From sequence record NC_100371.1: a stretch of DNA of 64,000 bases; one strand, given 5' to 3'. Position numbers and translations under genes: made by a program. This document shows positions 9,067 through 63,091 of this stretch, piece by piece (the stretch's first letter is position 1; every line of letters starts with the position of its first letter). The notes under the pieces were generated by a model that was not told the origin of the DNA, did not search any database, and worked only from the letters and a program-made list of their open reading frames with translations. This stretch comes from a phage.

Positions 9067-9621
9067 TTACTCCCCGCTGTCAATAGCAAGACTCATTGCA
9101 ATACGGTATGCCTCTTCTAATGGTAAGAGTCTCCCCCACACATCCCAACCGACATCAAACTGCCTGCCAAACAACTGCTGTGTGGTTCCGTGAGCATGAC
9201 CGAACAGTTGGACTGATCCGTGAGGCTTTCTGTTCCACTTTGCAAACTGGTAATGGCTCATACAGATCAAATTCTTGTTGTGGCGAAGCTCGTAATAATC
9301 TACAACCTCATGACCGAACTCTTTCATAATTCTGACAGTCGTCCTTGTGTCATGGTTACCACGAACAAGAATAATATGTCCGTTCAACATATTTAGAACA
9401 TCTGGAAGCAATTTGTTGATATTCTTATCATTAGTGCACGCAATATCCCCCAAGTGAAACACAGTGTCTGCAGGTGACACAACAGAGTTCCACTTGGTGA
9501 TGATTCCCGCATTCATACTGTCAAGATTGTGATCATACTGAGATCTGTGTTTTTGACATGAGTCGAACTCCATTACCCGCTGGTGGAGAAAGTGTGTGTC
9601 GCTTGTTACAAAGTATTTCAT
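9067..9621 (-). CDS. calcineurin-like metallophosphoesterase
   Basis: MKYFVTSDTHF...GDIACTNDK...VRGNHDT motifs. Confidence 0.6.
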   Translation of the reverse strand: MKYFVTSDTHFLHQRVMEFDSCQKHRSQYDHNLDSMNAGIITKWNSVVSPADTVFHLGDIACTNDKNINKLLPDVLNMLNGHIILVRGNHDTRTTVRIMKEFGHEVVDYYELRHNKNLICMSHYQFAKWNRKPHGSVQLFGHAHGTTQQLFGRQFDVGWDVWGRLLPLEEAYRIAMSLAIDSGE

Positions 9622-9628
9622 ACATTCC

Positions 9629-10039
9629 TCATTTAAGTTTAATGCAGTTTTTAAGCTGGCGTTCCATACGATCCACAACCCTGTCTGGAACATCATGAAT
9701 GCTTTTATTACCATGGCGGTTTTCAACCACGATCACGGTATAACTATATCCATGACTGATCGCCATGTCAATATATTCTTGCACATATTTTTCTTTTGTA
9801 AACGTATTACTTACCACGATACGGTCGTAGCCCATACGCATCATATCTTCTACGTTATCTTTGCACCATTTTGCTGCAAGTGTTACTTTACTTGCATCCC
9901 AATTGTAATTGCCGTCATCGTCGTACCAGAACATATCGTTCTCAAAATGTGGATACAGACCTTCTAAAGATAGCGCATTTGCCAGTGTTGATTTGCCAGA
10001 CCCTGGTAGACCACGCACGATATATAGCATTTTAGACAT
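9629..10039 (-). CDS. P-loop kinase, polynucleotide-kinase-like
   Basis: ATG at 10039 with GGAGAG RBS; Walker A GLPGSGKST; about 136 aa. Confidence 0.55.
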   Translation of the reverse strand: MSKMLYIVRGLPGSGKSTLANALSLEGLYPHFENDMFWYDDDGNYNWDASKVTLAAKWCKDNVEDMMRMGYDRIVVSNTFTKEKYVQEYIDMAISHGYSYTVIVVENRHGNKSIHDVPDRVVDRMERQLKNCIKLK

Positions 10040-10139
10040 AGTAACTCTCCGTTTTAATTTTAATGATAGTATACCTAACTGTTTTGTTAATTTCAAGTGT
10101 TGACACCAGGTTATTTGTGTGGCAGAATAAAGGGACAAA

Positions 10140-11075
10140 ATGACAAATGAGGAATGTATGATGAAGTATTTTAATGCAGACGACCTGGTTGACAAAGGTC
10201 TTGTAACCAGCAGATATTACCCAGATCTTGGATTAAAGATCTACAAATATGCCAGAAAAGTATTCTACAACAATTTATGGCATTTGTCTCCGCGTTTACT
10301 AGAGTGCCGAGGCATTGTTGTCGGTAATGAAGGAAATGTTGTGGCATGGCCCTTCACAAAAGTGTTTAATTTGGGAGAAAACTCCACCAACCTGCCTGAC
10401 AATAAACTTGTGACGGCGGTAGAGAAAAAGAACGGATTCCTTGGTGTGGTATCATCTCATAAAGGTGAACTATTGTTTTCAACAACCGGGTCTCTTGATT
10501 CTCCATATTGTAACCTTGCAAAGGAAACCATCCAGGAGCAATGTGGTAATTTAGATCTTATCAAGAAGGTTATGGGCCATGAAAACATGACATTCATGTT
10601 TGAAATTTGTCACCCTTCAGATCCGCATATTGTTCAGGAAGATCATGGCGCATATTTGATAGGTTGCAGATATAATGATTCTGGAATAATGCTACCAGAA
10701 GCAGCTTTAGATGGGATTGCCAAATACCTTGGTGCAAAACGTCCTCACACTGTGCGTGAAATTCCGTTCAGCTATGCAAAAGAATTAGCTGCAGAAACAA
10801 GGGGTGAAGGGTATATGATCCGTAAGCCTTACTACCCTTATGACCTGCAACTAAAGATCAAGTCTCCCTACTATCTGGCACGGAAGGCCGTAATGAGGTG
10901 TAGAGCTTGGAAGATTTGGGATGATGATATCTTTAAACGTGTTGACGAAGAGTTTTACGGCATGGTAAACTTCATTCGTAGGAACTACACAGAAGATGTG
11001 TGGAATTGCCTCCTGGAGCAGGAACGCCGTGAGATACTTGACTGCTATTTCCACAACGAGGACTATATGCAATGA
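10140..11075 (+). CDS. RNA ligase, T4 Rnl1 (RnlA)-like
   Basis: Blocks LLECRGIVV, KVFNLGEN, EKKNGFLGVV and FSTTGSLDS parallel T4 Rnl1 ECRGIMF / KFFNLNEN / KEDGSLVS / FKSKGSIKS, including the nucleotidyl-transferase lysine. Confidence 0.6.
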   Translation: MTNEECMMKYFNADDLVDKGLVTSRYYPDLGLKIYKYARKVFYNNLWHLSPRLLECRGIVVGNEGNVVAWPFTKVFNLGENSTNLPDNKLVTAVEKKNGFLGVVSSHKGELLFSTTGSLDSPYCNLAKETIQEQCGNLDLIKKVMGHENMTFMFEICHPSDPHIVQEDHGAYLIGCRYNDSGIMLPEAALDGIAKYLGAKRPHTVREIPFSYAKELAAETRGEGYMIRKPYYPYDLQLKIKSPYYLARKAVMRCRAWKIWDDDIFKRVDEEFYGMVNFIRRNYTEDVWNCLLEQERREILDCYFHNEDYMQ

Positions 11076-11430: not shown

Positions 11431-12192
11431 ATGCGACGACTTATTGTTATTTCTGGTGCTGGCTTGAGCGCAGAATCTGGGATCCCAACTTTTCGTTCTG
11501 GTCAAACTGCAATGTGGGAGAATTTCAGCATCGATGAGGTGTGTAACATCCACACCTTTGCCAAGAACTACTATAAGGTGCATGACTTTTACAATGCACG
11601 GCGTGTAGCTCTGGGCAGTGTTGATCCTAACCTTGCACATCTCCGGATCGCTGAGTGGTATTCACGTTGGTCTGGTCGTGTGATCAACCTGACAACCAAT
11701 GTAGATGATTTGCTGGAGCGTGCTGGTGTTAAACATGAAGATATCTTACATGTCCACGGGTATTTGCCTGAAATCACCTACGAAGATGCTGAAGGTAATG
11801 ATGTAATTAAAAATATCGGATACACGGAGGTAGATACAGGCAAGTATACTTGGGTTAAGCCCAATGTGGTGTTCTTCGGTGAGGTTGCTCCTAAGTATAC
11901 AGACATGTATGACCTATTGACATCTCTTACCAGCAATGATATGGTGATCCTGGTGGGTTGTTCTAACACAGTTATTAATTTTAACTGGGAATTGTTTCCT
12001 GCTACTTGTAAAGGCACAAAACTACTGATTGTAAACAAGTATGATTCGCAGAGTGCAGATGGAAGCGGCATTTCACGTAGCGACCTTTATCAATATGAGG
12101 ATCGCGGGATCCCGGTTTGGTTTAACGGGGCGGTTGATGCTTTCTCTGATAAAACATTCATTGAGACCGTAGAAAACTTTATGGAACTTTAA
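11431..12192 (+). CDS. Sir2-family (sirtuin-like) NAD-dependent protein
   Basis: GAGLSAESGIPTFR, TNVDDL and VHG motifs; no obvious zinc-ribbon cysteines. Confidence 0.55.
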   Translation: MRRLIVISGAGLSAESGIPTFRSGQTAMWENFSIDEVCNIHTFAKNYYKVHDFYNARRVALGSVDPNLAHLRIAEWYSRWSGRVINLTTNVDDLLERAGVKHEDILHVHGYLPEITYEDAEGNDVIKNIGYTEVDTGKYTWVKPNVVFFGEVAPKYTDMYDLLTSLTSNDMVILVGCSNTVINFNWELFPATCKGTKLLIVNKYDSQSADGSGISRSDLYQYEDRGIPVWFNGAVDAFSDKTFIETVENFMEL

Positions 12193-46338: not shown

Positions 46339-47022
46339 TCCGGTGAACGATTCCATACCTTAAGCAGTTAATCTCATTACAGAGCGTTTAAGGGCGGCTT
46401 ACAAGCAACTCTCTATTTCGAGCGTAGCGAGAACGCACGTCCGTTTTGACCAAAATCACCATACGCTCGGATTTTAACCAAACCCTCGCGGCGCTTCTGT
46501 TGACACATTACCGCTCCTGTGATAGTATCCGCACATCGTTTGAAGAATATGGGATACACAATGAAAACATTGTCAGAGGTTTTAGTGGTGATCCTGATAA
46601 TCATTGCGTCCATAGCGGCTGTTGCCGGAATATGCTTATAGCATCGACACGTTCCAGCCATATGTCGATAAAGTCTTATTTTTTAAACATGTTGCCGGAA
46701 TACTCACGGGTGGAACATGACCAACACACATGCATCTAAAGAGACATCTGAAGGGGTGACAGAGGAAAACTTCAATTCTGAGGATTCTCTATCTCCGTCC
46801 CAGGTGGACCCTGAGGCTGATGACCTGACGTGGGAGGATATCATAGCCATCTGGTTCTCTATTATGCCTGAGCACGAAGAGTTCAGAGGTGGGAGACTAT
46901 GAAGCACCGAGCCCACATAAGTTTATCATGCTAAAGCATGGCCTGAAGGGGCAAACGTGTATAATTCTAGCGTATTGGAACGTATAAACCCTGTTCACAC
47001 TCTCATTTCCAGAGGAGATTTC

Positions 47023-47238
47023 ATGAAAATAGAGATATTTGGTGGGGCTGACAACACTCGTGGCCTGATTTACCTTGAATTTGATGAATCTTATCTGCCA
47101 GAGGTGTTAAATATAGATGCTGTTGCGGAAGCCCTTGATGTAGACCCTAAAGATCTCTACTCTGGTGCTGAGATTGATGGTTGGGAAGAGACTCTGAACA
47201 TTGATTTCAGTGAAGTAGTGGGTGAACCTTTGGACTGA
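47023..47238 (+). CDS. small acidic protein, MKIEIF-type
   Basis: ATG with AGAGGAGA RBS; last plus-strand gene before the ORF-free region. Confidence 0.45.
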   Translation: MKIEIFGGADNTRGLIYLEFDESYLPEVLNIDAVAEALDVDPKDLYSGAEIDGWEETLNIDFSEVVGEPLD

Positions 47239-47377
47239 CACACAAGTCTGCTTTGCAGGTTTAGCTGCCCAGCTAAGGTTCTGGAGGCACCTATAACATC
47301 TTTCAACTAAATTTCCTACCAACACAGTTACTTACCCACCACACATAACTGTTTGCTTGTTTAGTGAGCAGTCATCC

Positions 47378-47405
47378 CTTGACATTCTTGCCTATCTTGA
47401 TAAAA
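47378..47405 (+). promoter_or_regulatory. sigma70-like promoter with no ORF downstream
   Basis: TTGACA-N16-TAAAAT reading into a purine/GC-rich stretch with no credible ORF. Confidence 0.4.
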
Positions 47406-48766
47406 TTAAGTTCTTCTCTTTTCTTTTACCGAGTAATTCGGGTTTTCTGTTCTCTTCGGTTTGAAGGGGTATGGAGATACACCTGAGTGAACAGGGTGAA
47501 CAACCGAACATTTGGCTATGGCATTAGCATGGCGAAGCGGACGGGTGACGAAAGAGGGGCCGGAGGACACCAGTCACTGCCATATAGTATATGGGTGATA
47601 ACCTGAAGAGTCTGAATAAGTGTTTAAGTACCAGTCAGAGGAAAAGGTGAATGGTAGCCGAAGGGGGAGAGGGGGTTTCTTATATCTTTAATTTGTATAT
47701 TATGTATACACTTGTAAACCAATTCAATTAGGATCTGTTTACCACACAAAGTGGATGGAGACAAATATCACCTATTAAACTTGAATTATTTATAGAAAAT
47801 ACCACAACACCTCTTAAGTATTTGATTTTACACACAAATCTTACAAATATCCTACCTCCATATTTAACATACTTGTAACATATTCCATATCCTACCTGCC
47901 TGATCAATTTACTCCCACCACATCCCCACATTTTCCCTGTCTGTACTACCCCTGCCCCGCCGGGAGTCCCGTCATATCTGGCTTTCCAGCAAATATCGCA
48001 CCCACAAATATCATCACCTGAAGAGGGTTTCATCCCATAATACCTGCCTTACCTGAAGAGCGCTTCATACACCACGTAAATTTTTTAATTGACCCCTCCC
48101 CGCCGCCGGAGAGGTTGGCTTTTCCCACACAGGCCTGAAGAGTCAGCCAGAAATATCTGAACAGGTCCAGTTATACCCCGATTTTGTGCCTGTCCTACAG
48201 GAGTGCTGCCCTGTCAGGAGCCGGTAGCGACTGGAGTGCTGCCAGGCGGACGGAATGGGAATACTTCTCATTTTTATAATAATTCTCAAATATCGAGGCA
48301 GTGAGGCAAATTAATAGGCCAGGCCGTTCACACAGTGGCACAACATTTGCAATCTATCTTGTGGGAGTGAATGAGAATACCTATCATTGTGAGAATGGTT
48401 ATCATTACGGGCAATTTAACATAATACCCATTATGCGCACCACTGGCGATACATACAGGGATTGATAACATGGGTTACTGTTTACGCATATAACAATTAT
48501 ATTTCTTACTATTTGTGTGGGATATAGTTAGCAACCAATAGATTAGATATTGACCTGCAGACTTCTGACCGTCCAGACGTCTAAACGCCCACACAGCAAG
48601 GATTATACATACACTCCTGCATGTAAACAGGACCGCAAAAATGCTACCATACCAGTTTGTAAATTTTTCATGCAGCACTTGACAAAGAGGAGAAAAACTT
48701 GTCTGACACACTGGACACAATGTCCCACAATATGACACAATAACGGCTGTTACTATTCCATATCTC

Positions 48767-48824
48767 ACTGTTTACGCATAGACTGTTTACGCCTGAATAG
48801 TTTACGCAAAAACTGTTTACACAG
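48767..48824. repeat. four tandem iteron-like direct repeats (ACTGTTTACGC)
   Basis: Copies at 14-17-bp spacing; further copies near 48477, 49231 and 49267. Confidence 0.55.
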
Positions 48825-48833
48825 AGATGATAA

Positions 48834-49066
48834 GCCATGCCATTCGTTTGCATGAAAACAATTAACAAGCTAACAATCTATGACATAATATAAAAGCAGG
48901 GCAACTATTAGAAGATCTATAGTTGCCTTGCTTGTTATGTCATGATTAACTAAATACAAGGCAACTATGATCTGAATAATAGATTGCAGACAAACTATCA
49001 CGGGGGTGATTGTTACTGCTTTTATATTATGTCGCGACTCCGTCGCGCCATGCCATTCGTTTGCAT
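48834..49066. repeat. dyad-symmetric element bounded by a 20-bp direct repeat
   Basis: GCCATGCCATTCGTTTGCAT at 48834-48853 and 49047-49066; inverted 18-mers GACATAATATAAAAGCAG / CTGCTTTTATATTATGTC; several GGCAACTAT/ATAGTTGCC palindromes. Confidence 0.5.
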
Positions 49067-49681
49067 AGTTGCCTTATTGTTACAGGTAAAACAATTACAT
49101 TATTAATTATTTCTTATCTTTCTCTTAGTCATCTAATGATTCCAGTCAGTATAGTAATGTACAGTAAACATTAGACGACTAAAGATTTCTCTGTGTATAA
49201 TAACTTATCGTGACAATTTCGAACTGTTTACGAAAAATGTTGACACCTGAGCTGATTTATGTTATGCAGTTTACACGAATAATTATTTTATGCAGGTATT
49301 GACTATTCCGTTATTCTGTGGTTGGAATAAATACTTTGCAGACTATAGAATGGCGTGCGTACGTGAATTCTGAGATCTGGCGGCTATAGTTATACTCGAT
49401 TTTTCGCGTAGAACACGCTTTCGATGCTGTGTAAGTGTATGACTTATAAAGATTTTTAGTTGTTGACAAGATATTGGAGATGTGCATCAGGTTAAAATTT
49501 GTGCAATAGCGGCATTACGTGCACTTTTGGGAGAGAAAACGGGTAAAAATGGCCCTGCTACCACACAATGAAAGATTATGCAATAGTTATTTTCCATGTA
49601 TATTTGTACAGTATGTGGGATTGATGGCTAGTCAATTATTCCACTTGCCAGGTAGGGCCGTTTATGGTAGGAGAAGAGCAG

Positions 49682-49709
49682 ACAAAAAGAAAGGGGCCTT
49701 TAAGCCCCT
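49682..49709 (-). terminator. rho-independent terminator ending the minus-strand gene block
   Basis: AGGGGC-loop-GCCCCT hairpin followed by a T-tract on the minus strand. Confidence 0.55.
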
Positions 49710-49728
49710 TGATAATTCAGTTAAGAAA

Positions 49729-50148
49729 TTATAATGATTCGTATATTTCAAAAATCCGATTTGCCAGGTCGTTACGGTAGCGGAATTTTTCATCGCGCTT
49801 GATCATTAAATCCTTATAGCCGTACTCTTTAAGCACTTCATTAACTTTATAGCGGCATACCTGCATATTATCTTGAGCGTCACCAATAAACTTGTTGCTG
49901 TGGTGCATTGCTTTAATTTCTTCTTCCAGGACCAGGGCAACTACCCGGACCGGATCAAGCTGATAGGCGGTAACATCTATGCGGCATTGTAGACGGCTTT
50001 TAACGTCTGCCACCGGATATACTGCAACCTCTTCCCCGTCAACATTGACAATAATTAGTTTACCATCGATTTCGAATCCTTTCGCCGCCGGACCGTGACA
50101 AAAAGCGTTATCAAAGCTATATGCCGGATTATCAGATTTAATGTTCAT
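49729..50148 (-). CDS. hypothetical protein
   Basis: 139 aa; AAGAGGTAAAAAC RBS. Confidence 0.5.
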   Translation of the reverse strand: MNIKSDNPAYSFDNAFCHGPAAKGFEIDGKLIIVNVDGEEVAVYPVADVKSRLQCRIDVTAYQLDPVRVVALVLEEEIKAMHHSNKFIGDAQDNMQVCRYKVNEVLKEYGYKDLMIKRDEKFRYRNDLANRIFEIYESL

Positions 50149-50197
50149 GGTGTTTTTACCTCTTAGTTAATTTTCTTACAACTTCCCTTCAAAAAAG

Positions 50198-50226
50198 AAT
50201 ATAGCAAAACTGCCGATCCCTGTCAA
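50198..50226 (-). promoter_or_regulatory. sigma70-like promoter
   Basis: Minus strand TTGACA-N17-TATATT. Confidence 0.5.
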
Positions 50227-50292
50227 CAAGGGATAGCATAATTTTTATGTGATCAAGGGGCTTTATCGCCCCTGACCATGCAACCTGTTGTA

Positions 50293-50556
50293 TTATTTGT
50301 TGCTCATCCAGTTTTCCCAAGCTGCCTGATAATCTGCCTCACTACGGCGGATCTCTTCTTGTTCTTCAAGCCGGATCTCTTCTTCCAGGTACCCCAAGAT
50401 ATCGGCTTTTTTGGTCTGGCGTAACATCCAATCGTCTTTTTTGCGAGTAAAGATCTTGTACGCTTTCTCGCAAACTTCTTTTTTGCTACCTTTTTGGACT
50501 TCAAGAATTCTGTAAGCCATGTACTGAACTAGTTTGAGCTGGTCAAGACGTTTCAT
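50293..50556 (-). CDS. hypothetical protein
   Basis: ATG at 50556 with AAGAGGAAAAC RBS. Confidence 0.45.
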   Translation of the reverse strand: MKRLDQLKLVQYMAYRILEVQKGSKKEVCEKAYKIFTRKKDDWMLRQTKKADILGYLEEEIRLEEQEEIRRSEADYQAAWENWMSNK

Positions 50557-52040: not shown

Positions 52041-52145
52041 TTATCCGATACCGTTGGAAGACAAGATCATATTAGCCATGGTTGCAATCAGGCCAATACC
52101 TAGGGCAATAACCAGGATCATCGCATCAATTAATTTCTGTTTCAT
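52041..52145 (-). CDS. small hydrophobic membrane peptide (34 aa)
   Basis: MKQKLIDAMILVIALGIGLIATMANMILSSNGIG; GAGGAAAAC RBS. Confidence 0.35.
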   Translation of the reverse strand: MKQKLIDAMILVIALGIGLIATMANMILSSNGIG

Positions 52146-52237
52146 CTTGTTTTCCTCTTCTTGCTCCAGGTGGCGGACCATTCCACCACCTTATGTATTA
52201 TGCTTTGTTAGATAGTGTTGTTTGTTGTCAAACTATT

Positions 52238-52417
52238 TTAACGATAGTCATCATATGCTTTATTAACCTGGCGAATATAACATTCAAAAGCTAGATCAAT
52301 AGACTTATACTCACGGATATACTCGCCATAGGAAACCACATACATTTCTATAGCTTCCTCATATGCCAGGAGAATAGAATCTAACCCTACAATCTCGGTC
52401 TTTGCAATAATAGCCAT
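52238..52417 (-). CDS. hypothetical protein (59 aa)
   Basis: AAGAGGATAAAAATC RBS; just under the track's 60-aa cut-off. Confidence 0.4.
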   Translation of the reverse strand: MAIIAKTEIVGLDSILLAYEEAIEMYVVSYGEYIREYKSIDLAFECYIRQVNKAYDDYR

Positions 52418-52492
52418 GATTTTTATCCTCTTTGTGGTTGGTGGGGCTTGCCCCTTTGATTTATATACTACAGTCTTATACGGTCATGTCAA

Positions 52493-52726
52493 CTATTTTT
52501 CAAAAAATTTTTCTGCTGTGATATTCTTCCCGGTCGGATTAGCTACTTTTAAAATTCTATCATGCACCGGACGCCCAAAAGAATACGATCCGTATACAGT
52601 AAACCAATAATCCCCGTTCGGTTGAACTGTTACCGCAGCGTACGGTGTCCCTCTTTCATTATCACCAATAAAGTGAGAAACATTGCCGTTAACGTTCGGT
52701 TTAGTGCTTTTAATTTGTTCAATCAT
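52493..52726 (-). CDS. hypothetical protein
   Basis: 77 aa; AAGAGGGG RBS. Confidence 0.45.
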   Translation of the reverse strand: MIEQIKSTKPNVNGNVSHFIGDNERGTPYAAVTVQPNGDYWFTVYGSYSFGRPVHDRILKVANPTGKNITAEKFFEK

Positions 52727-52788
52727 GATGATTTACCCCTCTTTATTTTTTCATAATTTCAGGAGGGGCCTTTTCGGCCCCGCCAGGC

Positions 52789-53073
52789 TTATTTATTGAT
52801 GGCGTGCAACGGGAAAGGTACGCCAGGTTGATAGATAACTTTTACAACCTCATCAGGGCAAAAGAAGTTGCAAAATTCACCGCAATAGGCTTCGTCTTCT
52901 TTTAGCTCTTCATCAACATACTCAAAAAAGTAGTCGATGCTTGGATAATCCTGGCCGGGATTATAGTCGACCATTGTCAGGACTAGCTCAAGATCGTTGC
53001 GTAGGATATGCATACCCGCTTTTAAGTATTTGGCTTCCATTTCTACTACATCGCCAACGGTAACAATAGCCAT
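52789..53073 (-). CDS. hypothetical acidic protein
   Basis: 94 aa; TAGGAG RBS. Confidence 0.45.
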   Translation of the reverse strand: MAIVTVGDVVEMEAKYLKAGMHILRNDLELVLTMVDYNPGQDYPSIDYFFEYVDEELKEDEAYCGEFCNFFCPDEVVKVIYQPGVPFPLHAINK

Positions 53074-53274
53074 AGTTTTAACTCCTATCTATCCGGTTAA
53101 TGATTGGGGGCCGCCCCCTGACACGTCCTATTATCCATATTGTAGGACTTGATGCAAGTACTTCTTTAAAAAAATTTTTAAGCGCCTTGGGGCCGCTGTA
53201 ACGCCAAAATAATAAAGGCCATGCGGTTGCATAGCCTTTAGATGATTATATCGCTGTAGGCCCTGCTGGGGGCC

Positions 53275-53625
53275 TTATTTTGCATTATTTCCTATATTGC
53301 CGCCACGGTACCAGCGTTTACGGTGAAAATGGTAATAATCGCCATCGGCATTGAACATCAGATGGTTTTCAATAACCAGCTTACGAAGGTGGGCCGGATC
53401 TTGTTCCATTCTTGCCAGACTCTGGCGGCTGTTACGTAAGCGGATAAATTCCATATTCAGGCCGTTGATTGCAGCATGGATGTCAAAGTAACCACCTTTG
53501 AGACGTTCACGCATGGCGTTAATCTCAACACAATATACAGATTTCTCACAAATCAAGGTATTAGCCAGGGCGCGGACCTGGGCAAGGGGGTTAAGCTCAT
53601 TAAGGTAATATAGTTTTACTTTCAT
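53275..53625 (-). CDS. hypothetical protein
   Basis: 116 aa; weak RBS. Confidence 0.4.
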   Translation of the reverse strand: MKVKLYYLNELNPLAQVRALANTLICEKSVYCVEINAMRERLKGGYFDIHAAINGLNMEFIRLRNSRQSLARMEQDPAHLRKLVIENHLMFNADGDYYHFHRKRWYRGGNIGNNAK

Positions 53626-53642
53626 AAAATAACCTGCTGAAA

Positions 53643-53942
53643 CTAGTTTGAGAAAACATCGTTCACAATAGCGATCACAATGCCGTTCACCTTGTCACGG
53701 TCAACAATGCACAAATCGCCATAGATCATGTGGTAGTCTGGATGATCTTTCACGGAATAATCAATGAGTGTTTTCTTATCGTCCAGCTTACTAACTTCCA
53801 TTCTCATAACGATATGAGAATCATCGAAGACATTATTCCGAAAAGTCATAACCTGACCGCCAGGGCACCCTGTGATCTCTACTTCCACGCCGTCTACGAT
53901 CTGACCATCAAAGAAATAAAGATTATTAGCCTGGATAAACAT
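53643..53942 (-). CDS. hypothetical protein
   Basis: ATG at 53942 placed 8 nt after an AAAGGAG RBS. Confidence 0.45.
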   Translation of the reverse strand: MFIQANNLYFFDGQIVDGVEVEITGCPGGQVMTFRNNVFDDSHIVMRMEVSKLDDKKTLIDYSVKDHPDYHMIYGDLCIVDRDKVNGIVIAIVNDVFSN

Positions 53943-53986
53943 GATCATTACTCCTTTTTGCACTGATTATTTTAACAGGGTTTAAA

Positions 53987-54031
53987 TTTACTTTATTGAT
54001 GGCCCTGGAGTCAAGGCCATCTAAAAATAAA
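53987..54031. repeat. 45-bp repeat, copy 1 (promoter-like with hairpin)
   Basis: Identical to 57724-57768; the minus strand reads TTGACT-N18-TAAATT with an upstream GATGGCC...GGCCATC hairpin. Confidence 0.55.
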
Positions 54032-54033
54032 TT

Positions 54034-54234
54034 TTACAGGCCTACAATCTCTTTAATTCGTTTTACTGCTGCCTCAGCGCCTTGAGGGTAAAAATTATGG
54101 TAACCAATCACGCGGGTAATACTGATCGCCACTTGATGATCTTCATAATCGCCTTTGAAGATTTCTTGACCGTCAATCAACACGGCAATTTTTTCTTCTT
54201 TTTTGAAGTTAATAACGCGGATATTGTTGCTCAT
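54034..54234 (-). CDS. hypothetical protein
   Basis: 66 aa; AAAGGAGAAAC RBS. Confidence 0.45.
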   Translation of the reverse strand: MSNNIRVINFKKEEKIAVLIDGQEIFKGDYEDHQVAISITRVIGYHNFYPQGAEAAVKRIKEIVGL

Positions 54235-54376
54235 TTTGTTTCTCCTTTTGGAACTTTGTCTATGTGGTGAGGAGTGTCTCCCCGTTGATTGTTATTATCC
54301 ATATTCTGGATCGGATTGCAACACCCAGGGAGAAAAAAATTTAAAAAGTTAGGCCCCCAGGGATCAGGGGCCGTTA

Positions 54377-54496
54377 TCAGTTACTTACAGCGATAAAATA
54401 CATCCCTACGCCTAACAATATTTCAAGGGCGATGATCTCAAGCCATACCATAGCACGGCTTGCCTTATCGGTGCGGGGCTTATCCTTGGGTGTCAT
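54377..54496 (-). CDS. small hydrophobic peptide (39 aa)
   Basis: MTPKDKPRTDKASRAMVWLEIIALEILLGVGMYFIAVSN; AGGGGGAG RBS. Confidence 0.35.
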   Translation of the reverse strand: MTPKDKPRTDKASRAMVWLEIIALEILLGVGMYFIAVSN

Positions 54497-54516
54497 CGTC
54501 TCCCCCTTTCCTCCTG

Positions 54517-54738
54517 TTAGCAGTTACGTGGTTTGCAATGGTCCCCAGGAGTATTATCACCACGCACATTACAAGAAAAATTATCTCTGTCGTTGTTCGA
54601 TCCATTGTTATAAAATTCCTTAAGATCAGGCCTGAAAATAAAGCTTTCGTTATTGAATCCATCCCGCCAGGCGGCTGGCTTCAAATCTTCACTAAATGGA
54701 TTAATTAACGTGGCATTATTTAAACGGCTGGCCCACAT
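54517..54738 (-). CDS. hypothetical protein
   Basis: ATG at 54738 with GAGAGGAA RBS. Confidence 0.4.
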   Translation of the reverse strand: MWASRLNNATLINPFSEDLKPAAWRDGFNNESFIFRPDLKEFYNNGSNNDRDNFSCNVRGDNTPGDHCKPRNC

Positions 54739-55087
54739 ATTTTCTATTCCTCTCAAATAAGCGATCCGCCTCAGTTAAACAAATCTCATGGGCGTGATCT
54801 CTGGTTTTAGCTTCATCGAAAACCTGTTGTGCAAGGCTGCAACGTAGGGAGACTGGAAGATCACTATAATAGGCGTTGACAAACGTTTGAGCGTCGTACA
54901 GGTCTGAAAATACTTTACCCTTTCTATTATTCCCCTTGTCAACAATTGCAAGGATAACCAATACAATAGTTGCAACCACTCCCAGGAAGATAGATATAAT
55001 AAACCATAAAAAGGCGGATCTCCCCATCTTGCCAGCGATCCAGGCGTTAAACAAGGCAACCAATACAGCCAAAATAATAAATTCCAT
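54716..55087 (-). CDS. membrane protein (two predicted TM helices)
   Basis: ATG at 55087 with AAGAGGT RBS; hydrophobic N-terminal half. Confidence 0.45.
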   Translation of the reverse strand: MEFIILAVLVALFNAWIAGKMGRSAFLWFIISIFLGVVATIVLVILAIVDKGNNRKGKVFSDLYDAQTFVNAYYSDLPVSLRCSLAQQVFDEAKTRDHAHEICLTEADRLFERNRKYVGQPFK

Positions 55088-55151
55088 TCTATGTACCTCT
55101 TTTACAGTTCTGATTAACAATAAGGCGGCAAATATGCCGCCTGTTACCTGA

Positions 55152-55532
55152 TTAAAAATTATCGCCGTAAATCTTTCCGCTTTCTACCCATACCACCACG
55201 CGAGGCATACTATCCCACACGTCTTGTTTTAGATTGAGCGCGTGCAATTCTTCGGTGGTGCTCATACCGGGCACGGGCTGATTGTATACTGCAAAACGAC
55301 CGCCTGCATAATCATAGGCCAGGGTTAAATCACACTGGATCATCTTTTTGATCATGGCATTAAGCATGGCGTTAGCCGCGTACTGATCTCGTTTTAATGG
55401 CAACTCTTTAATCAGTTTGCGATAGTTTTCGATATGGTCGCACACTGTTTCACGCGGAAGATCTTTCATATCTTCACGGAATGTAACCAGGTTAAACATA
55501 ACGGTGTCAATAGCTTTAGTAGTGTTTTTCAT
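55152..55532 (-). CDS. hypothetical protein
   Basis: ATG at 55532 with AAGAGGAAAAC RBS. Confidence 0.45.
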   Translation of the reverse strand: MKNTTKAIDTVMFNLVTFREDMKDLPRETVCDHIENYRKLIKELPLKRDQYAANAMLNAMIKKMIQCDLTLAYDYAGGRFAVYNQPVPGMSTTEELHALNLKQDVWDSMPRVVVWVESGKIYGDNF

Positions 55533-55623
55533 GATGTTTTCCTCTTTGTTTTGTGGGAGGCAAGTCATCTCACCCCCTTGAGTTTTAAATATAGCAGGTT
55601 TTTAGATTATTGCAACACTTTAT

Positions 55624-56247
55624 TTATGAAAAACTCATCTCACCATATTCATCCACATCAAACCGCCAATCATTGGCTTCAATAAGGCCGATCAGGTTTT
55701 CGGTAGTAAACTGTTCAAGATAGGACTCCTCCAGGTCTACATAAACCTTGCGGGATAGCTCCCGTACCGTCTCGGTGATCAGCTCTTCCAGGTCTTCCAC
55801 TTTGTTTTCTTGTTTGGCGGTCAGATCTAGCCAGGTGGTATCAATGTATCCGCTTACAGTGTTTTCATGGCTGTAATGGCTGTACTTGTCGCGTTCAATA
55901 CTGGCTGATAACTCGCCATCGTGCATTGTGCCGAACAAGTGACGAATTGATCGGAACTTGGTCAGGGCCTTTACTTTACGCAAGAATTTTTCTAAATCCA
56001 CGTTTTCAGCACTGATTGACGCGCCGTCACCCTGGCACCAAAAGCCGGACCAATGTACTTCGGTATCTTCAAGGCCGTACTCTGGAAAAACTTGTTCTTT
56101 ATAATATTCAATTACACTTTCTGCGAAAAAATCCTCTCCGCTGTGTTCTTCTCTTTCGCGGACCATTTCAATAGCTTTTTCTTTTTGTTCGTCGGTCAGC
56201 ACGTTGAAAGATAAATTGCAACCTGTGGTAATGTTAACGGTGGTCAT
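55624..56247 (-). CDS. hypothetical protein
   Basis: 207 aa; AGGAGAAAA RBS. Confidence 0.5.
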   Translation of the reverse strand: MTTVNITTGCNLSFNVLTDEQKEKAIEMVREREEHSGEDFFAESVIEYYKEQVFPEYGLEDTEVHWSGFWCQGDGASISAENVDLEKFLRKVKALTKFRSIRHLFGTMHDGELSASIERDKYSHYSHENTVSGYIDTTWLDLTAKQENKVEDLEELITETVRELSRKVYVDLEESYLEQFTTENLIGLIEANDWRFDVDEYGEMSFS

Positions 56248-61508: not shown

Positions 61509-61703
61509 TTACAGGTTACTCCAGTATACTCGGCATTTACACTTCGGGCAATGAGGTTCTTTTATGTAATAACCGTCAGTCTTTGGAACACTTTTTGGTG
61601 CAGTTTTAAGATTGTACCGAGTAAAGCAACGGAAGCAGGTTACCTCTCCTACCTGTTGATCGTTTATCCACTCGCCAGAGTAAAGCTCTTTCTTGTTTCT
61701 CAT
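61509..61703 (-). CDS. zinc-ribbon protein
   Basis: ATG at 61703 with GGGGAGATAATT RBS; CFRC...CPKC cysteine pairs. Confidence 0.4.
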   Translation of the reverse strand: MRNKKELYSGEWINDQQVGEVTCFRCFTRYNLKTAPKSVPKTDGYYIKEPHCPKCKCRVYWSNL

Positions 61704-61705
61704 AA

Positions 61706-61900
61706 TTATCTCCCCAAGCCTCTGCAATCTTCTACCAGAATCTCCAGCCAGAAAGCACACGGGAACACTTTGATGATTGAATCTTTACTCGGCTCGGAAG
61801 TTCTTTTTCCGTAGGGCAGGTAGAAATACCCTCCTGCAGATTCAAACATGGCTCCTTCTGTTGTATCTATCACAGCTAGAATTAAGATTTTAGTCTCCAT
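61706..61900 (-). CDS. hypothetical protein
   Basis: 64 aa; AGGGGAG RBS. Confidence 0.4.
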   Translation of the reverse strand: METKILILAVIDTTEGAMFESAGGYFYLPYGKRTSEPSKDSIIKVFPCAFWLEILVEDCRGLGR

Positions 61901-61954
61901 AGTGCTCCCCTGTCTTAATCGTTGTGGTGACTATACCACCTTAAAATATAGCTG

Positions 61955-62413
61955 TCAACACTCTTTGTACTCCACCACGATAATATCTATATCAAAAGTG
62001 GCAAGGTTAATAATGTCCTCTACATGTTCCCACTTCAAACCGCCTATGCCGCACCCGATCTTAGGGATGTAGAATGGTAAAATCGACCCCTCAAATACTT
62101 CATTGACTCGCTCAAATCCTTTCAGTATTGAGAAATATTCAGCATTAGGCCCTGGGTAGAACTGAGTATACAGATTTATTCCGTAGACAATACCTCTCGG
62201 AGATAAGTGCTCCCAGCGGGAGAACGCGCCCAGTTTACTTAGGCAACCGTGCATAGTCATTTTATCAGCTTCCAATGCTTGAGGGAACTCACGGGCAATC
62301 TGTTTTGCTACACCCTTACCCATTGTGTGGAAGCAGTTACAACCGTGGATCAGGTGACCAGCACCGCTCTTAAAAAGGGAGATTAAATCTCCCTCTACAG
62401 TATCAATAATCAC
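61955..62413 (-). CDS. macrodomain protein, TARG1/OARD1/DarG-like
   Basis: GDLISLF...HLIHGCNCFHTMGKGVAKQIAREFP...IPKIGCGIGGLKWEHVEDII parallels the TARG1 blocks GDLF...[21 protein letters not shown]...PRIGCGLDRLQWENVSAMI; GTG start at 62413 with GAGGAG RBS. Confidence 0.5.
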   Translation of the reverse strand: MIIDTVEGDLISLFKSGAGHLIHGCNCFHTMGKGVAKQIAREFPQALEADKMTMHGCLSKLGAFSRWEHLSPRGIVYGINLYTQFYPGPNAEYFSILKGFERVNEVFEGSILPFYIPKIGCGIGGLKWEHVEDIINLATFDIDIIVVEYKEC

Positions 62414-62828
62414 GATATTCCAGCTCCTCTTCCACAATTTCAAAAAACTCAGTCCAGCACTGTGGCATATTGGAGTTACCGAAGTGGCTTTCATAGTAAA
62501 GGTTTTTACCGCTCGGAAGATAGAAATCTGTTACCTCATAAAATCCACAATCGTCGCACTCTCCCTCTTCAAACTTGGCCTTAATCTTAATACCAAGGAA
62601 GGTGAAAAGTTTATGGATATCTTCGGTCTCGAACTCCCAACTAATGTTGTTTTCCGCATCGGTGTAAAACTGGATCAGTAGGCCATCATCCATTTTTCCA
62701 AAATATTCTGTGAAGTAGCTCCCTTCCCAGAAGTCTTTGTGACAAATAATATCCATGCGCTTGCCCATAATAAAGGTGTGGGCGTTTCGTGCATCGTCAC
62801 GAATCAGTTTTGGCATTTCATAAATCAT
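62403..62828 (-). CDS. hypothetical protein upstream of and overlapping the macrodomain gene
   Basis: 141 aa with a CDDC pair; GGAGAA RBS. Confidence 0.45.
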   Translation of the reverse strand: MIYEMPKLIRDDARNAHTFIMGKRMDIICHKDFWEGSYFTEYFGKMDDGLLIQFYTDAENNISWEFETEDIHKLFTFLGIKIKAKFEEGECDDCGFYEVTDFYLPSGKNLYYESHFGNSNMPQCWTEFFEIVEEELEYRDY

Positions 62829-62893: not shown

Positions 62894-63091
62894 TTACGCA
62901 GGAATTGCTTCAAACAGGCCGTTATCGATACCATCTTTCAAGTAAAGATTATACTCTATGTCGGTATCTGTGTAAAGGGCAGCATCCAGCATTCTATCTG
63001 TGAGTCCATCCATTGGGTGGAGAAACCACCACCCACGCCAGTCAAAGTAACAACCTGGTGCATCTTCTCTCACACGGATTCGATAAATCAT
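62894..63091 (-). CDS. hypothetical protein
   Basis: 65 aa; AGGAGG RBS. Confidence 0.45.
   Translation of the reverse strand: MIYRIRVREDAPGCYFDWRGWWFLHPMDGLTDRMLDAALYTDTDIEYNLYLKDGIDNGLFEAIPA

What the first reader, a model, noticed from the sequence alone, without database searches (positions are those of the whole stretch)
61955..62828. TARG1/DarG-like macrodomain gene overlapping an upstream unknown gene
The protein at 61955-62413 aligns by eye with TARG1/OARD1-type macrodomains, which remove ADP-ribose from proteins or, as DarG, from DNA. A phage copy could reverse ADP-ribosylation imposed by host toxins or defense systems such as DarT. It overlaps the 3' end of an uncharacterised 141-aa gene (62403-62828), suggesting a co-expressed pair.
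Basis: partly seen in the sequence, partly recalled or inferred. Interest (0 to 1): 0.75.

Follow-up and report, generated by a model that had tools for sequence, protein, structure and literature searches.

The report
Phage macrodomain, T4 AdfM-type anti-DarT enzyme
This E. coli phage gene encodes a small ADP-ribose-removing enzyme closely related to the phage T4 protein recently shown to defeat the bacterial DarTG2 defence, so it is a real but largely already-explained counter-defence gene, and the gene overlapping it is an unrelated neighbour of unknown function.

Summary
On the minus strand of a Vequintavirus (rV5-like E. coli phage) window, a 141-aa gene (62828-62403) overlaps by 11 nt a 152-aa gene with a GTG start (62413-61955).

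The 152-aa protein is a genuine macrodomain of the ALC1-like class (TARG1, DarG, SCO6735, Poa1p). This holds by Pfam, by profile search against PDB sequences, and by a pLDDT-96 model whose best PDB match is TARG1.

It is 44% identical over its full length to T4 Tk.4, and 70% identical to the Krischvirus gene in the tk.4 position. A 2025 preprint named tk.4 adfM after showing that T4 needs it to resist DarTG2. The whole phage family has an invariant Gln where DarG and TARG1 have the catalytic Lys, as in SCO6735, which removes ADP-ribose from thymidine in DNA.

The most likely function is removal of DarT2-made ADP-ribose from phage DNA. The main rival is ADPR-1''-phosphate phosphatase activity (Adpp, 35% identical), but this genome lacks the NARP1 partner genes.

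The upstream acidic protein has no recognisable fold or family. Its pairing with the macro gene is confined to Vequintavirus, so the two are probably co-expressed but there is no evidence that they work together.

Verdict: a new member of a known kind, of modest interest.

The parts
61955..62413 (-). Macrodomain gene (GTG start, 152 aa plus stop). It is the Vequintavirus counterpart of T4 tk.4/adfM.
   Evidence: ORF and sequence. Pfam Macro E = 1.3e-7; PHROG 335 E = 1e-60; DarG models match the macro part only. 44% identity to T4 Tk.4 and 69.5% to the Krischvirus tk.4-position gene. AF2 pLDDT 96.1, with TARG1, DarG, Poa1p and SCO6735 as top PDB folds.
62306..62347 (-). Codons for H23-A36 (HGCNCFHTMGKGVA). 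This is the first ADP-ribose-binding loop and includes the invariant Asn26 (codon 62338-62336), which is equivalent to the ribose-contacting Asn of DarG and PhiKZ AdfM.
   Evidence: Invariant or nearly invariant columns H23, G24, N26, C27, M31, G32, G34 and A36 in the 75-sequence alignment A2. Aligned with DarG VNCVGVMGKG, SCO6735 HVCNDLGGWGKG and Poa1p HSCNCNGSWGGG.
62162..62164 (-). Codon for Gln84 in the NLYTQ motif. This position holds the catalytic Lys in DarG (K80) and TARG1 (K84), and the essential Gln85 in SCO6735.
   Evidence: Q84 is invariant in 75 family members. It aligns with the Q of SCO6735 'NMIGQH' (chain residue 105 minus a 20-residue tag gives Q85), and with 'PTKK' of DarG and 'ITKK' of TARG1. 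The role of SCO6735 Q85 is taken from PMC9411070.
62039..62059 (-). Codons for I119-G125 (IGCGIGG), the second diphosphate-binding loop. TARG1 Asp125 corresponds to a Gly here, as it does in DarG.
   Evidence: P117, G120 and G122 are invariant; I119 and G125 are nearly invariant. Aligned with TARG1 IGCGLDR, DarG LGVGNGG and SCO6735 IGCGLAG.
62403..62828 (-). Upstream 141-aa gene. It encodes an acidic protein (pI 4.4) of unknown function (PHROG 8157) with a conserved C-terminal motif EGxCDxCG..LPSG..HFGN.
   Evidence: ORF. No Pfam, NCBIfam or PADLOC hit. Homologues are found only in Vequintavirus, Krischvirus and about ten small phage-like clusters. AF2 pLDDT 90.5, but no PDB or BFVD fold match. 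dN/dS 0.05-0.14.
62403..62413 (-). The 11-nt overlap GTGATTATTGA, containing the macro start codon GTG and the upstream stop codon TGA. This is the probable site of translational coupling.
   Evidence: Sequence. The junction is conserved in ECP32, Bas56 and Bas57, and the same 11-nt overlap appears in the Bas54 coordinates.
62424..62429 (-). GAGGAG Shine-Dalgarno-like motif, ending 10 nt before the GTG start and lying inside the upstream gene.
   Evidence: Sequence. Conserved in four Vequintavirus genomes even though neighbouring codons differ.
62948..62976 (-). Sigma-70-like promoter candidate (TTTACA-17-TATAAT, 11 of 12 matches), about 120 nt upstream of the 141-aa gene. It may drive transcription of the pair.
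   Evidence: Consensus scan only. Fourteen sites were found in 3 kb against 6.5 expected. Function is not shown.
61930..61958 (-). Sigma-70-like promoter candidate (TTGACA-17-TATAGT with an extended TG). It overlaps the macro stop codon and probably serves the next small gene downstream.
   Evidence: Consensus scan. The hexamers are conserved in ECP32, Bas56 and Bas57. Function is not shown.

Best explanation
The 152-aa protein is a stand-alone macrodomain ADP-ribosyl-glycohydrolase of the ALC1-like class. It is the Vequintavirus member of the phage family that contains T4 Tk.4 (AdfM).

The most likely mechanism runs as follows. The gene is expressed from an early-type sigma-70-like promoter, together with the unrelated upstream gene. 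When a host DarTG2 system is triggered, the DarT2 toxin attaches ADP-ribose to thymidines in single-stranded phage DNA. The macrodomain binds the ADP-ribose through its two glycine-rich loops (HGCNCFHTMGKG and IGCGIGG) and Asn26. It then hydrolyses the ribose-thymine bond and restores replicable DNA.

Catalysis would follow the SCO6735 pattern, in which an essential Gln positions the substrate and water is activated, rather than the Lys-based chemistry of DarG and TARG1.

What is shown here: the fold, the class, the conserved residues and the homology to T4 Tk.4. What is shown by others: the T4 tk.4 knockout becomes DarTG2-sensitive, and SCO6735, which has Gln at this position, removes ADP-ribose from thymidine in DNA. 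What is inferred: that this Vequintavirus protein has the same substrate and the same role.
For: - **Fold and class.** Macrodomain fold and ALC1-like class are supported.
- **DarG models.** The only hits in NCBIfam (2e-12) and PADLOC (2e-14) are DarG models, and they cover the macro part only.
- **Homology to Tk.4.** Identity is 44% over the full length to T4 Tk.4, and 69.5% to the Krischvirus gene sitting in the syntenic regB-vs-tk.4-tk position. In a neighbour-joining tree the window protein groups with these two, separate from the NARP1-linked Vibrio protein and from DarG and PhiKZ gp104.
- **Genetics in T4.** tk.4 is the single HIDEN-SEQ hit on a DarTG2 host, and the clean knockout is sensitised.
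- **Shared active site.** T4 Tk.4 carries the same HGCNCFHTMG, NLYTQ and IGCGI motifs, and Q84 is invariant in 75 homologues.
- **Gln-type chemistry works on DNA.** Q84 aligns with SCO6735 Gln85. That enzyme removes DarT-made ADP-ribose from thymidine in DNA, and its Q85A mutant is inactive.
- **Accessory character.** The Bas54 genes of the same sizes and arrangement, bas54_0091 and bas54_0092, are non-essential on E. coli K-12. A natural deletion variant also exists.
- **Correlation with sensitivity.** T5, which is DarTG2-sensitive, has no homologue.
Against: - No experiment has been done on any Vequintavirus protein. The Bas54 transposon library was not reported on a DarTG2 host.
- The T4 evidence comes from a preprint and is genetic only. 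Identity to T4 Tk.4 is 44%.
- The only phage macrodomain shown biochemically to clean DarT2-modified DNA is PhiKZ gp104. It is only 24% identical and belongs to the Lys-type DarG branch.
- The same broad phage family includes an enzyme with a different proven substrate: Adpp, an ADPR-1''-phosphate phosphatase.
- The catalytic Lys of DarG and TARG1 is absent.
- SCO6735's longer lysine-bearing mobile loop, which was proposed to clamp DNA, is also absent.
Confidence: 0.6

Rival explanations
1. The protein is an ADP-ribose-1''-phosphate phosphatase like phage Adpp or yeast Poa1p. Under this reading, RES-domain (aRES) defence degrades NAD+ to ADPR-1''-phosphate, and the enzyme converts that product back to ADP-ribose.
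For: - PHROG 335, which the protein matches at 1e-60, is labelled 'phosphatase'.
- Poa1p is among the top PDB relatives by sequence (5e-15) and by fold.
- The macro gene of Vibrio phage Cody, 35% identical, sits between Adps and Namat.
- The equivalent protein of Vibrio phage Gary dephosphorylates ADPR-1P and is required to overcome aRES.
- The Poa1p catalytic His23 position is conserved as H23.
Against: - No Adps or Namat homologue was found in the window or in the rest of the near-identical NHEP1 genome, either by tblastn at E <= 1 or in its annotation. The product ADPR could therefore not be fed into a phage NARP1 pathway.
- The NARP1-linked protein lies outside the T4/Krischvirus/Vequintavirus clade and carries a 7-residue insertion after the Gln, which the window protein lacks.
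- The closer relative, T4 Tk.4, has a DarTG2 phenotype.
- The two activities need not be mutually exclusive.
Confidence: 0.15
2. The protein works with the phage's own Sir2-family enzyme. It would either deacetylate the O-acetyl-ADP-ribose that Sir2 produces or reverse Sir2-catalysed ADP-ribosylation.
For: - The same phage encodes a Sir2-family protein (window 11431-12192, Pfam SIR2 E = 5.4e-28).
- Some GenBank records name the macro protein 'O-acetyl-ADP-ribose deacetylase'.
- TARG1-class macrodomains deacylate O-acetyl-ADP-ribose (established knowledge; the PDB name of TARG1 reflects this).
Against: - The two genes lie about 50 kb apart on opposite strands.
- T5 has two Sir2-like genes but no homologue of this macrodomain.
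- In a spread sample of the 1022 phage records holding a Sir2 homologue, none of the listed records is a T4-like phage, although T4-like phages are the bulk carriers of the macro family.
- The two families therefore do not appear to travel together.
Confidence: 0.07
3. The protein removes ADP-ribose from proteins or RNA rather than DNA. Possible targets include modifications made by other host ADP-ribosyltransferase toxins or defence systems, or by phage-encoded transferases.
For: TARG1 and SCO6735, which are the same fold class, also act on ADP-ribosylated proteins. The ALC1-like class is broad in its substrates.
Against: - No ADP-ribosyltransferase is recognisable among the ten neighbouring genes by Pfam or PHROG.
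- The only phenotype known for a close homologue is against DarTG2, which modifies DNA.
- Nothing specifically supports a protein or RNA target.
Confidence: 0.1
4. The 141-aa protein and the macrodomain form a two-component counter-defence unit. One version is a split DarG, in which the acidic partner binds and blocks the toxin while the macrodomain erases its product.
For: - The 11-nt overlap and the internal SD motif are conserved across Vequintavirus.
- The partner is strongly acidic (pI 4.4), as DNA-mimicking inhibitors often are. The C-terminal domain of DarG is described as a DNA mimic.
Against: - The pairing is not conserved. T4 tk.4 follows vs, while the Krischvirus homologue of the 141-aa gene precedes dam and lies away from the macro gene.
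- Between the window and Bas57 the two genes have very different divergence, 72% against 95% amino-acid identity. This indicates separate histories.
- The model of the 141-aa protein does not match the DarTG structure 7OMU or anything else in the PDB.
Confidence: 0.06

Closest known systems
T4 Tk.4 = AdfM (anti-DarT factor macrodomain; HIDEN-SEQ preprint 10.1101/2025.11.20.689424)
   Same: Both are stand-alone proteins of about 150-160 aa, and they are 44% identical over the full length. They share the motifs HGCNCFHTMG, NLYTQ (Gln in place of the catalytic Lys) and IGCGI(G/A)G. Both are non-essential accessory genes in large lytic E. coli myophages. The Krischvirus gene in the tk.4 position is 69.5% identical to the window protein.
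   Different: The phage lineage differs (Vequintavirinae against Straboviridae), and so does the gene neighbourhood: the preceding gene is the 141-aa unknown here and vs in T4. No DarTG2 phenotype has been tested for the Vequintavirus protein.
Chimallivirus AdfM (PhiKZ gp104; Cell Rep 2026, PMC13309987)
   Same: It is a phage-encoded stand-alone macrodomain that counters DarTG2 by removing ADP-ribose from DNA. It has the same fold class.
   Different: Identity is only 24% (blastp E = 6e-4). PhiKZ gp104 groups with bacterial DarG and keeps the catalytic Lys (PTK motif, K78), whereas the window protein has Gln. The PhiKZ protein is imported into the phage nucleus, and Vequintaviruses are not chimalliviruses (inference). 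The two proteins named AdfM are thus separate lineages of the macrodomain class.
SCO6735 of Streptomyces coelicolor (PDB 5E3B; PMC9411070)
   Same: It is an ALC1-like macrodomain with Gln at the catalytic-Lys position and without the TARG1 Asp. It is active on thymidine-linked ADP-ribose in DNA. The family profile matches it at E = 1.7e-17, with TM-scores of 0.75/0.77.
   Different: Identity is about 24%. SCO6735 has a longer mobile loop after the Gln carrying Lys89 and Lys93, which is absent here. It is a bacterial chromosomal gene rather than a phage gene.
DarG antitoxin macrodomain (PDB 5M3I, 5M31) and human TARG1/OARD1 (PDB 4J5R/4J5S)
   Same: They have the same fold and are the best structural and sequence matches in the PDB. 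The ADP-ribose-binding loops are shared. Like DarG, the window protein has Gly at the TARG1 Asp125 position.
   Different: The catalytic Lys (DarG K80, TARG1 K84) is replaced by Gln84. There is no C-terminal DarT-binding domain and no adjacent darT gene. The NCBIfam DarG score is 47 bits against a cut-off of 250.
Adpp, the NARP1-associated ADPR-1''-phosphate phosphatase of Vibrio phages (bioRxiv 10.64898/2026.01.28.702374), and yeast Poa1p
   Same: It belongs to the same broad phage macrodomain family (35% identity to the Cody protein) and shares the His-x-Cys-Asn and Gln motifs. Poa1p is among the top PDB relatives.
   Different: Adpp is embedded between Adps and Namat, and this genome has neither gene. 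Adpp has a 7-residue insertion after the Gln. It lies outside the T4/Vequintavirus clade.

Membership tests
Macro domain superfamily (Pfam PF01661) | The score against the curated profile exceeds the gathering threshold, and the protein has the three-layer alpha/beta/alpha macro fold. | tested here: met
   32 bits against a cut-off of 22, covering profile positions 1-118 of 118. AF2 model pLDDT 96.1. 174 PDB matches at E <= 0.001, and the top 50 are almost entirely macrodomains.
ALC1-like macrodomain class (TARG1, DarG, SCO6735, Poa1p, BT1257) | The closest relatives by sequence profile and by fold are members of this class, rather than MacroD, PARG or viral Mac1 types. | tested here: met
   In the profile search against PDB sequences, the top 15 distinct sequences are all DarG, SCO6735, TARG1, BT1257, Poa1p or DarTG (E = 5e-18 to 9e-12). 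In Foldseek, ranks 1-19 are all proteins of this class, while viral Mac1 and macroH2A types rank lower.
TARG1/OARD1 | Catalytic dyad of Lys84 and Asp125. | tested here: not met
   Lys84 aligns with Gln84 (ITKK against YTQF). Asp125 aligns with Gly (GCGLDR against GCGIGG).
DarG antitoxin (type II/IV TA system DarTG2) | Catalytic Lys (TaqDarG K80) in the PTK motif. | tested here: not met
   It aligns with Gln84, which is invariant in 75 family members.
DarG antitoxin (type II/IV TA system DarTG2) | Two-domain protein of about 330-350 aa with a C-terminal DarT-binding domain, encoded next to darT. | tested here: not met
   The protein has 152 aa. The NCBIfam DarG model matches only positions 3-143 of 338 and scores 47 bits against a cut-off of 250. 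PADLOC DarG matches positions 4-141 of 329. No DarT or other ADP-ribosyltransferase is found among ten neighbouring genes.
SCO6735-type (Gln-type) ALC1-like hydrolases | Gln at the catalytic-Lys position (Gln85), with the His-x-Cys-Asn loop. | tested here: met
   Q84 aligns with the Q of NMIGQH, and HGCN aligns with HVCN (numbering checked against K34 and V25 of the paper).
SCO6735-type (Gln-type) ALC1-like hydrolases | An extended mobile loop with extra lysines (Lys89, Lys93) after the Gln. | tested here: not met
   There is no insertion after Q84: QFYPGPN here against QHGMKTGSKGAP in SCO6735.
T4-type AdfM (Tk.4) phage family | Full-length homology to T4 Tk.4 with shared active-site motifs, grouping with Tk.4 rather than with other macro lineages. 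| tested here: met
   44% identity over 151 of 152 residues, E = 9e-42. The motifs are shared. The neighbour-joining tree groups the window protein with the Krischvirus tk.4-position gene and T4/VR7 Tk.4.
T4-type AdfM (Tk.4) phage family | Confers resistance to DarTG2 and removes thymidine-linked ADP-ribose from DNA. | not testable with these tools
   This needs plaque assays on a DarTG2 host and an in vitro de-ADP-ribosylation assay. The only support available is indirect: T5 lacks the family and is DarTG2-sensitive.
Adpp (NARP1-AP ADPR-1''-phosphate phosphatase) | Encoded within or next to an Adps-Namat (NARP1) operon. | tested here: not met
   No Adps or Namat homologue was found in the window plus the remainder of the 99%-identical NHEP1 genome (tblastn at E <= 1; annotation).
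Adpp (NARP1-AP ADPR-1''-phosphate phosphatase) | ADPR-1''-phosphate phosphatase activity. | not testable with these tools
   This needs an LC-MS assay with purified protein. Sequence cannot exclude the activity, because H23 and Q84 are shared with the Cody protein.

The most novel reading that the evidence does not exclude
The Gln-type phage macrodomain may be a broad-spectrum eraser that both cleans DarT2-modified DNA and dephosphorylates ADPR-1''-phosphate, giving one small gene activity against two unrelated defences (DarTG2 and aRES). In addition, the translationally coupled acidic 141-aa protein, which has a confidently predicted fold with no match in the PDB or BFVD, may be a new anti-defence inhibitor acting on DNA-modification-based immunity. 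In Vequintavirus it sits upstream of a DNA de-ADP-ribosylase, and in Krischvirus upstream of a Dam methylase.
Probability: 0.1. Interest if true: 0.55.

Novelty: new member of a known kind. Interest (0 to 1): 0.3.

Why it matters
If it is confirmed, the Vequintavirinae, a group much used in phage-therapy work on E. coli, would join T4-like phages and chimalliviruses in carrying an enzymatic answer to DarTG2. That helps to predict host range on DarTG-bearing clinical strains.

The comparison also shows that the two published 'AdfM' proteins belong to different macrodomain lineages: T4 Tk.4 is Gln-type and SCO6735-like, whereas PhiKZ gp104 is Lys-type and DarG-like. The Gln-type family occurs in about 2,800 sequenced phage genomes and also contains the ADPR-1''-phosphate phosphatase Adpp. 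Annotation by homology alone ('phosphatase', 'O-acetyl-ADP-ribose deacetylase', 'macro domain protein') therefore cannot settle the substrate.

None of this is a new kind of system.

Tried and rejected
1. **Longer 179-aa ORF from ATG 62494.** Rejected, because all homologues start at the position of the GTG.
2. **Membership of DarG proper.** Rejected: only the macro part matches, the score is far below the cut-off, there is no darT gene, and the catalytic Lys is missing.
3. **Functional pairing with the upstream gene.** I looked for the pairing elsewhere and did not find it.
4. **Function of the 141-aa protein.**
   - Pfam, NCBIfam, PADLOC and PHROG gave nothing informative.
   - Two searches of the 5.8-billion-protein database and one full HMMER scan of 1.84 billion representatives found only a small family of phage-like proteins.
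   - The long eukaryotic hits in that scan are Cys-rich repeat artefacts (VWD, TIL and Ig proteins).
   - Foldseek against the PDB and BFVD gave no match with a TM-score above 0.4.
5. **NARP1 context.** I searched the whole genome for Adps and Namat and found none.
6. **Sir2 coupling.** The phyletic patterns do not match.
7. **Failed queries.** One literature query and one in-paper search failed because a search term was too short.
Full report
**Where the window comes from.** The 1.6 kb around the finding is 99% identical to Escherichia phages NHEP1, B9-1 and ECP32, and 92-93% identical to many other rV5-like myophages (Vequintavirus, about 137 kb). In those GenBank records the gene is already annotated as 'macro domain protein', 'phosphatase' or 'O-acetyl-ADP-ribose deacetylase', and its upstream neighbour as 'hypothetical protein'.

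**The observation.**
- Both ORFs are on the minus strand at the stated coordinates. The upstream gene runs 62828-62403 (141 aa) and the macro gene 62413-61955 (152 aa, GTG start).
- They share the 11 nt GTGATTATTGA, and a GAGGAG motif ends 10 nt before the GTG.
- The junction and this motif are conserved in ECP32, Bas56 and Bas57, although nearby codons differ. Bas54 has genes of the same sizes with the same overlap.
- The longer in-frame ORF from ATG 62494 is not supported, because every homologue, T4 Tk.4 included, starts at the position of the GTG.
- dN/dS is 0.05-0.27 for both genes, so both are real coding genes.
- A consensus scan places a sigma-70-like promoter (11 of 12 matches) about 120 nt upstream of the 141-aa gene. 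A second one overlaps the macro stop codon. No 9-of-12-or-better promoter match lies in the roughly 270 nt before the macro start codon, and no minus-strand terminator-like site lies in the pair; the only promoter match inside the pair is a 9-of-12 site within the upstream gene's coding sequence (62714-62685). The two genes are therefore plausibly one small early transcription unit with translational coupling. That step is inferred, not shown.

**What the 152-aa protein is.**
- Pfam Macro scores 32 bits against a cut-off of 22.
- The only NCBIfam and PADLOC hits are DarG models. They cover only the macro part and score far below the equivalog cut-off.
- A profile built from 75 homologues matches PDB sequences of Mtb DarG (5e-18), SCO6735 (1.7e-17), TARG1 (3.6e-17), BT1257, Thermus DarG (1e-15) and Poa1p (5e-15).
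- An AlphaFold2 model has pLDDT 96.1. Its best PDB matches are TARG1 (TM 0.78/0.85), then DarG, Poa1p, BT1257 and SCO6735.

**Active site.** In the 75-sequence alignment the invariant residues are G24, N26, G34, A36, N80, Q84, P117, G120 and G122.
- Q84, in the NLYTQ motif, occupies the position of the catalytic Lys of DarG (PTKK) and TARG1 (ITKK). It aligns exactly with Gln85 of SCO6735 (NMIGQH). I checked the numbering against Lys34 and Val25 of the SCO6735 paper.
- TARG1 Asp125 corresponds to Gly, as it does in DarG.
- According to PMC9411070, SCO6735 lacks both TARG1 catalytic residues yet removes DarT-made ADP-ribose from thymidine in DNA very efficiently, and its Q85A/E mutants are dead.
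- The protein is thus a Gln-type member of the class. It does lack SCO6735's longer lysine-bearing loop.

**Relatives with known function.** A tblastn search of 50,697 phage records finds homologues in 2,809 of them. They occur in T4-like phages, Felix-O1-like phages, Pakpunavirus, Kuttervirus, Acinetobacter and Vibrio phages and others. Three reference points matter.
1. **T4 Tk.4.** It is 44% identical over the full length and carries the same motifs. The Krischvirus gene in the syntenic regB-vs-tk.4-tk position is 69.5% identical to the window protein. The HIDEN-SEQ preprint reports tk.4 as the single T4 gene depleted on a DarTG2 host. It shows that the clean knockout is sensitised and names the gene adfM.
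2. **PhiKZ gp104.** This is the chimallivirus 'AdfM', shown biochemically to remove DarT2 modifications. It is only 24% identical, keeps the Lys (PTK motif) and groups with bacterial DarG in a neighbour-joining tree. The two proteins called AdfM are therefore different lineages of the class.
3. **The Vibrio phage NARP1-linked macro.** In Vibrio phage Cody a 35%-identical homologue lies between Adps and Namat. The equivalent protein of Vibrio phage Gary is Adpp, an ADPR-1''-phosphate phosphatase needed to overcome the aRES defence. The Cody protein falls outside the T4/Krischvirus/Vequintavirus clade and has a 7-residue insertion after the Gln.

**Weighing the functions.**
- The window plus the remainder of the NHEP1 genome covers a complete Vequintavirus genome and contains no Adps or Namat homologue. 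An Adpp-type role feeding NARP1 is therefore unlikely here, although the activity itself cannot be excluded from sequence.
- The phage does encode a Sir2-family protein (window 11431-12192), which raises an O-acetyl-ADP-ribose rival. However, T5 has two Sir2-like genes and no homologue of this macrodomain. No T4-like phage appears among the sampled records holding a Sir2 homologue, although T4-like phages are the main carriers of the macro family.
- T5 is also the standard DarTG2-sensitive phage, which fits the anti-DarTG2 reading.
- The Bas54 genes of the same sizes and arrangement are non-essential on E. coli K-12, with 21 of 23 and 31 of 31 TA sites disrupted. A natural in-frame deletion that removes half of each gene exists on a 135.5-kb contig. 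Both points are typical of accessory counter-defence genes.
- I put the anti-DarT2 DNA de-ADP-ribosylase explanation at about 0.6.

**The upstream gene.**
- The 141-aa protein is acidic (pI 4.4) and has no Pfam, NCBIfam or PADLOC match. It belongs to PHROG 8157, of unknown function.
- Homologues are confined to Vequintavirus, Krischvirus (36-39% identity) and a handful of small metagenomic proteins. They share the motif EGxCDxCG...LPSG...HFGN.
- Its AlphaFold2 model is confident (pLDDT 90.5) but matches nothing in the PDB or BFVD.
- In Krischvirus the homologue lies immediately upstream of dam, not of the macro gene. In T4 the gene preceding tk.4 is vs.
- Between the window and Bas57 the upstream gene is 72% identical and the macro gene 95% identical, so the two genes have separate histories.
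- The overlap supports co-expression but not a functional partnership.

**Verdict.** It is a new and untested member of a known kind. The modest added value is threefold: the family is Gln-type (SCO6735-like), it is distinct from the chimallivirus AdfM, and it also contains Adpp, so its substrate still needs a biochemical test.

Noticed in passing
window 11431-12192 (+), with neighbours 9067-9726 (-), 9629-10195 (-) and 10140-11075 (+): The phage encodes a Sir2-family protein (Pfam SIR2 E = 5.4e-28). It lies next to a T4-type RNA ligase, a calcineurin-like phosphoesterase and an AAA_33 kinase-like ATPase. Sir2 homologues occur in 1,022 phage records; those listed in the sample are mainly T5-like, Vequintavirus and large E. 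coli, Klebsiella and Vibrio phages.
   Followed up: partly
L014:1501-1866 (Logan contig ERR11560567_708, 135.5 kb); corresponds to window 61955-62828: This is a natural in-frame deletion. It fuses the first ~55 residues of the 141-aa gene to the macro gene from about residue 86, at a shared 'QFY' microhomology, and gives a 121-aa chimera lacking Asn26 and Gln84. It shows that both genes can be lost in the wild.
   Followed up: partly
window 61955-62828 compared with L005 (Bas57): The upstream gene is 72% identical at the amino-acid level between the window and Bas57, with saturated dS, whereas the adjacent macro gene is 95% identical. This suggests a recombination breakpoint at or near the gene junction.
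   Followed up: no
GenBank records MG065646, MG065655, MG065658, MG065661, MG065682 and others: Sixteen records named 'Campylobacter phage' with host C. jejuni are about 92-99% identical to this E. coli Vequintavirus across the loci searched. The host labels look doubtful.
   Followed up: no
L012:45046-48862 (NHEP1 52046-55862); roughly window 46,400-50,300 (mapping not verified): Where the plus-strand and minus-strand gene blocks meet, the NHEP1 annotation shows about 25 very small ORFs (30-60 aa) on mixed strands. The HIDEN-SEQ preprint reports a ~2 kb intergenic region in the related phage Bas54 that tolerates no transposon insertions. I did not check whether these are the same place.
   Followed up: no
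L004:3001-3432 (Escherichia phage kvi, Krischvirus): The Krischvirus homologue of the 141-aa protein ends exactly where the dam DNA adenine methylase gene begins. In two phage lineages, therefore, this small acidic protein sits directly upstream of an enzyme that acts on DNA modification.
   Followed up: no
window 61509-61760 (-): A small gene two positions downstream of the macro gene carries a Pfam 'Phage zinc binding domain' (PF23903, E = 1.5e-22). All the other neighbours belong to PHROGs of unknown function.
   Followed up: no
P0116 (142 aa, metagenomic): This protein joins an unrelated Cys/His/Lys-rich N-terminal half to the conserved C-terminal motif of the 141-aa family (DDCGDY...LPSG...HFGN). 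That suggests the C-terminal ~55 residues form an independent module.
   Followed up: no
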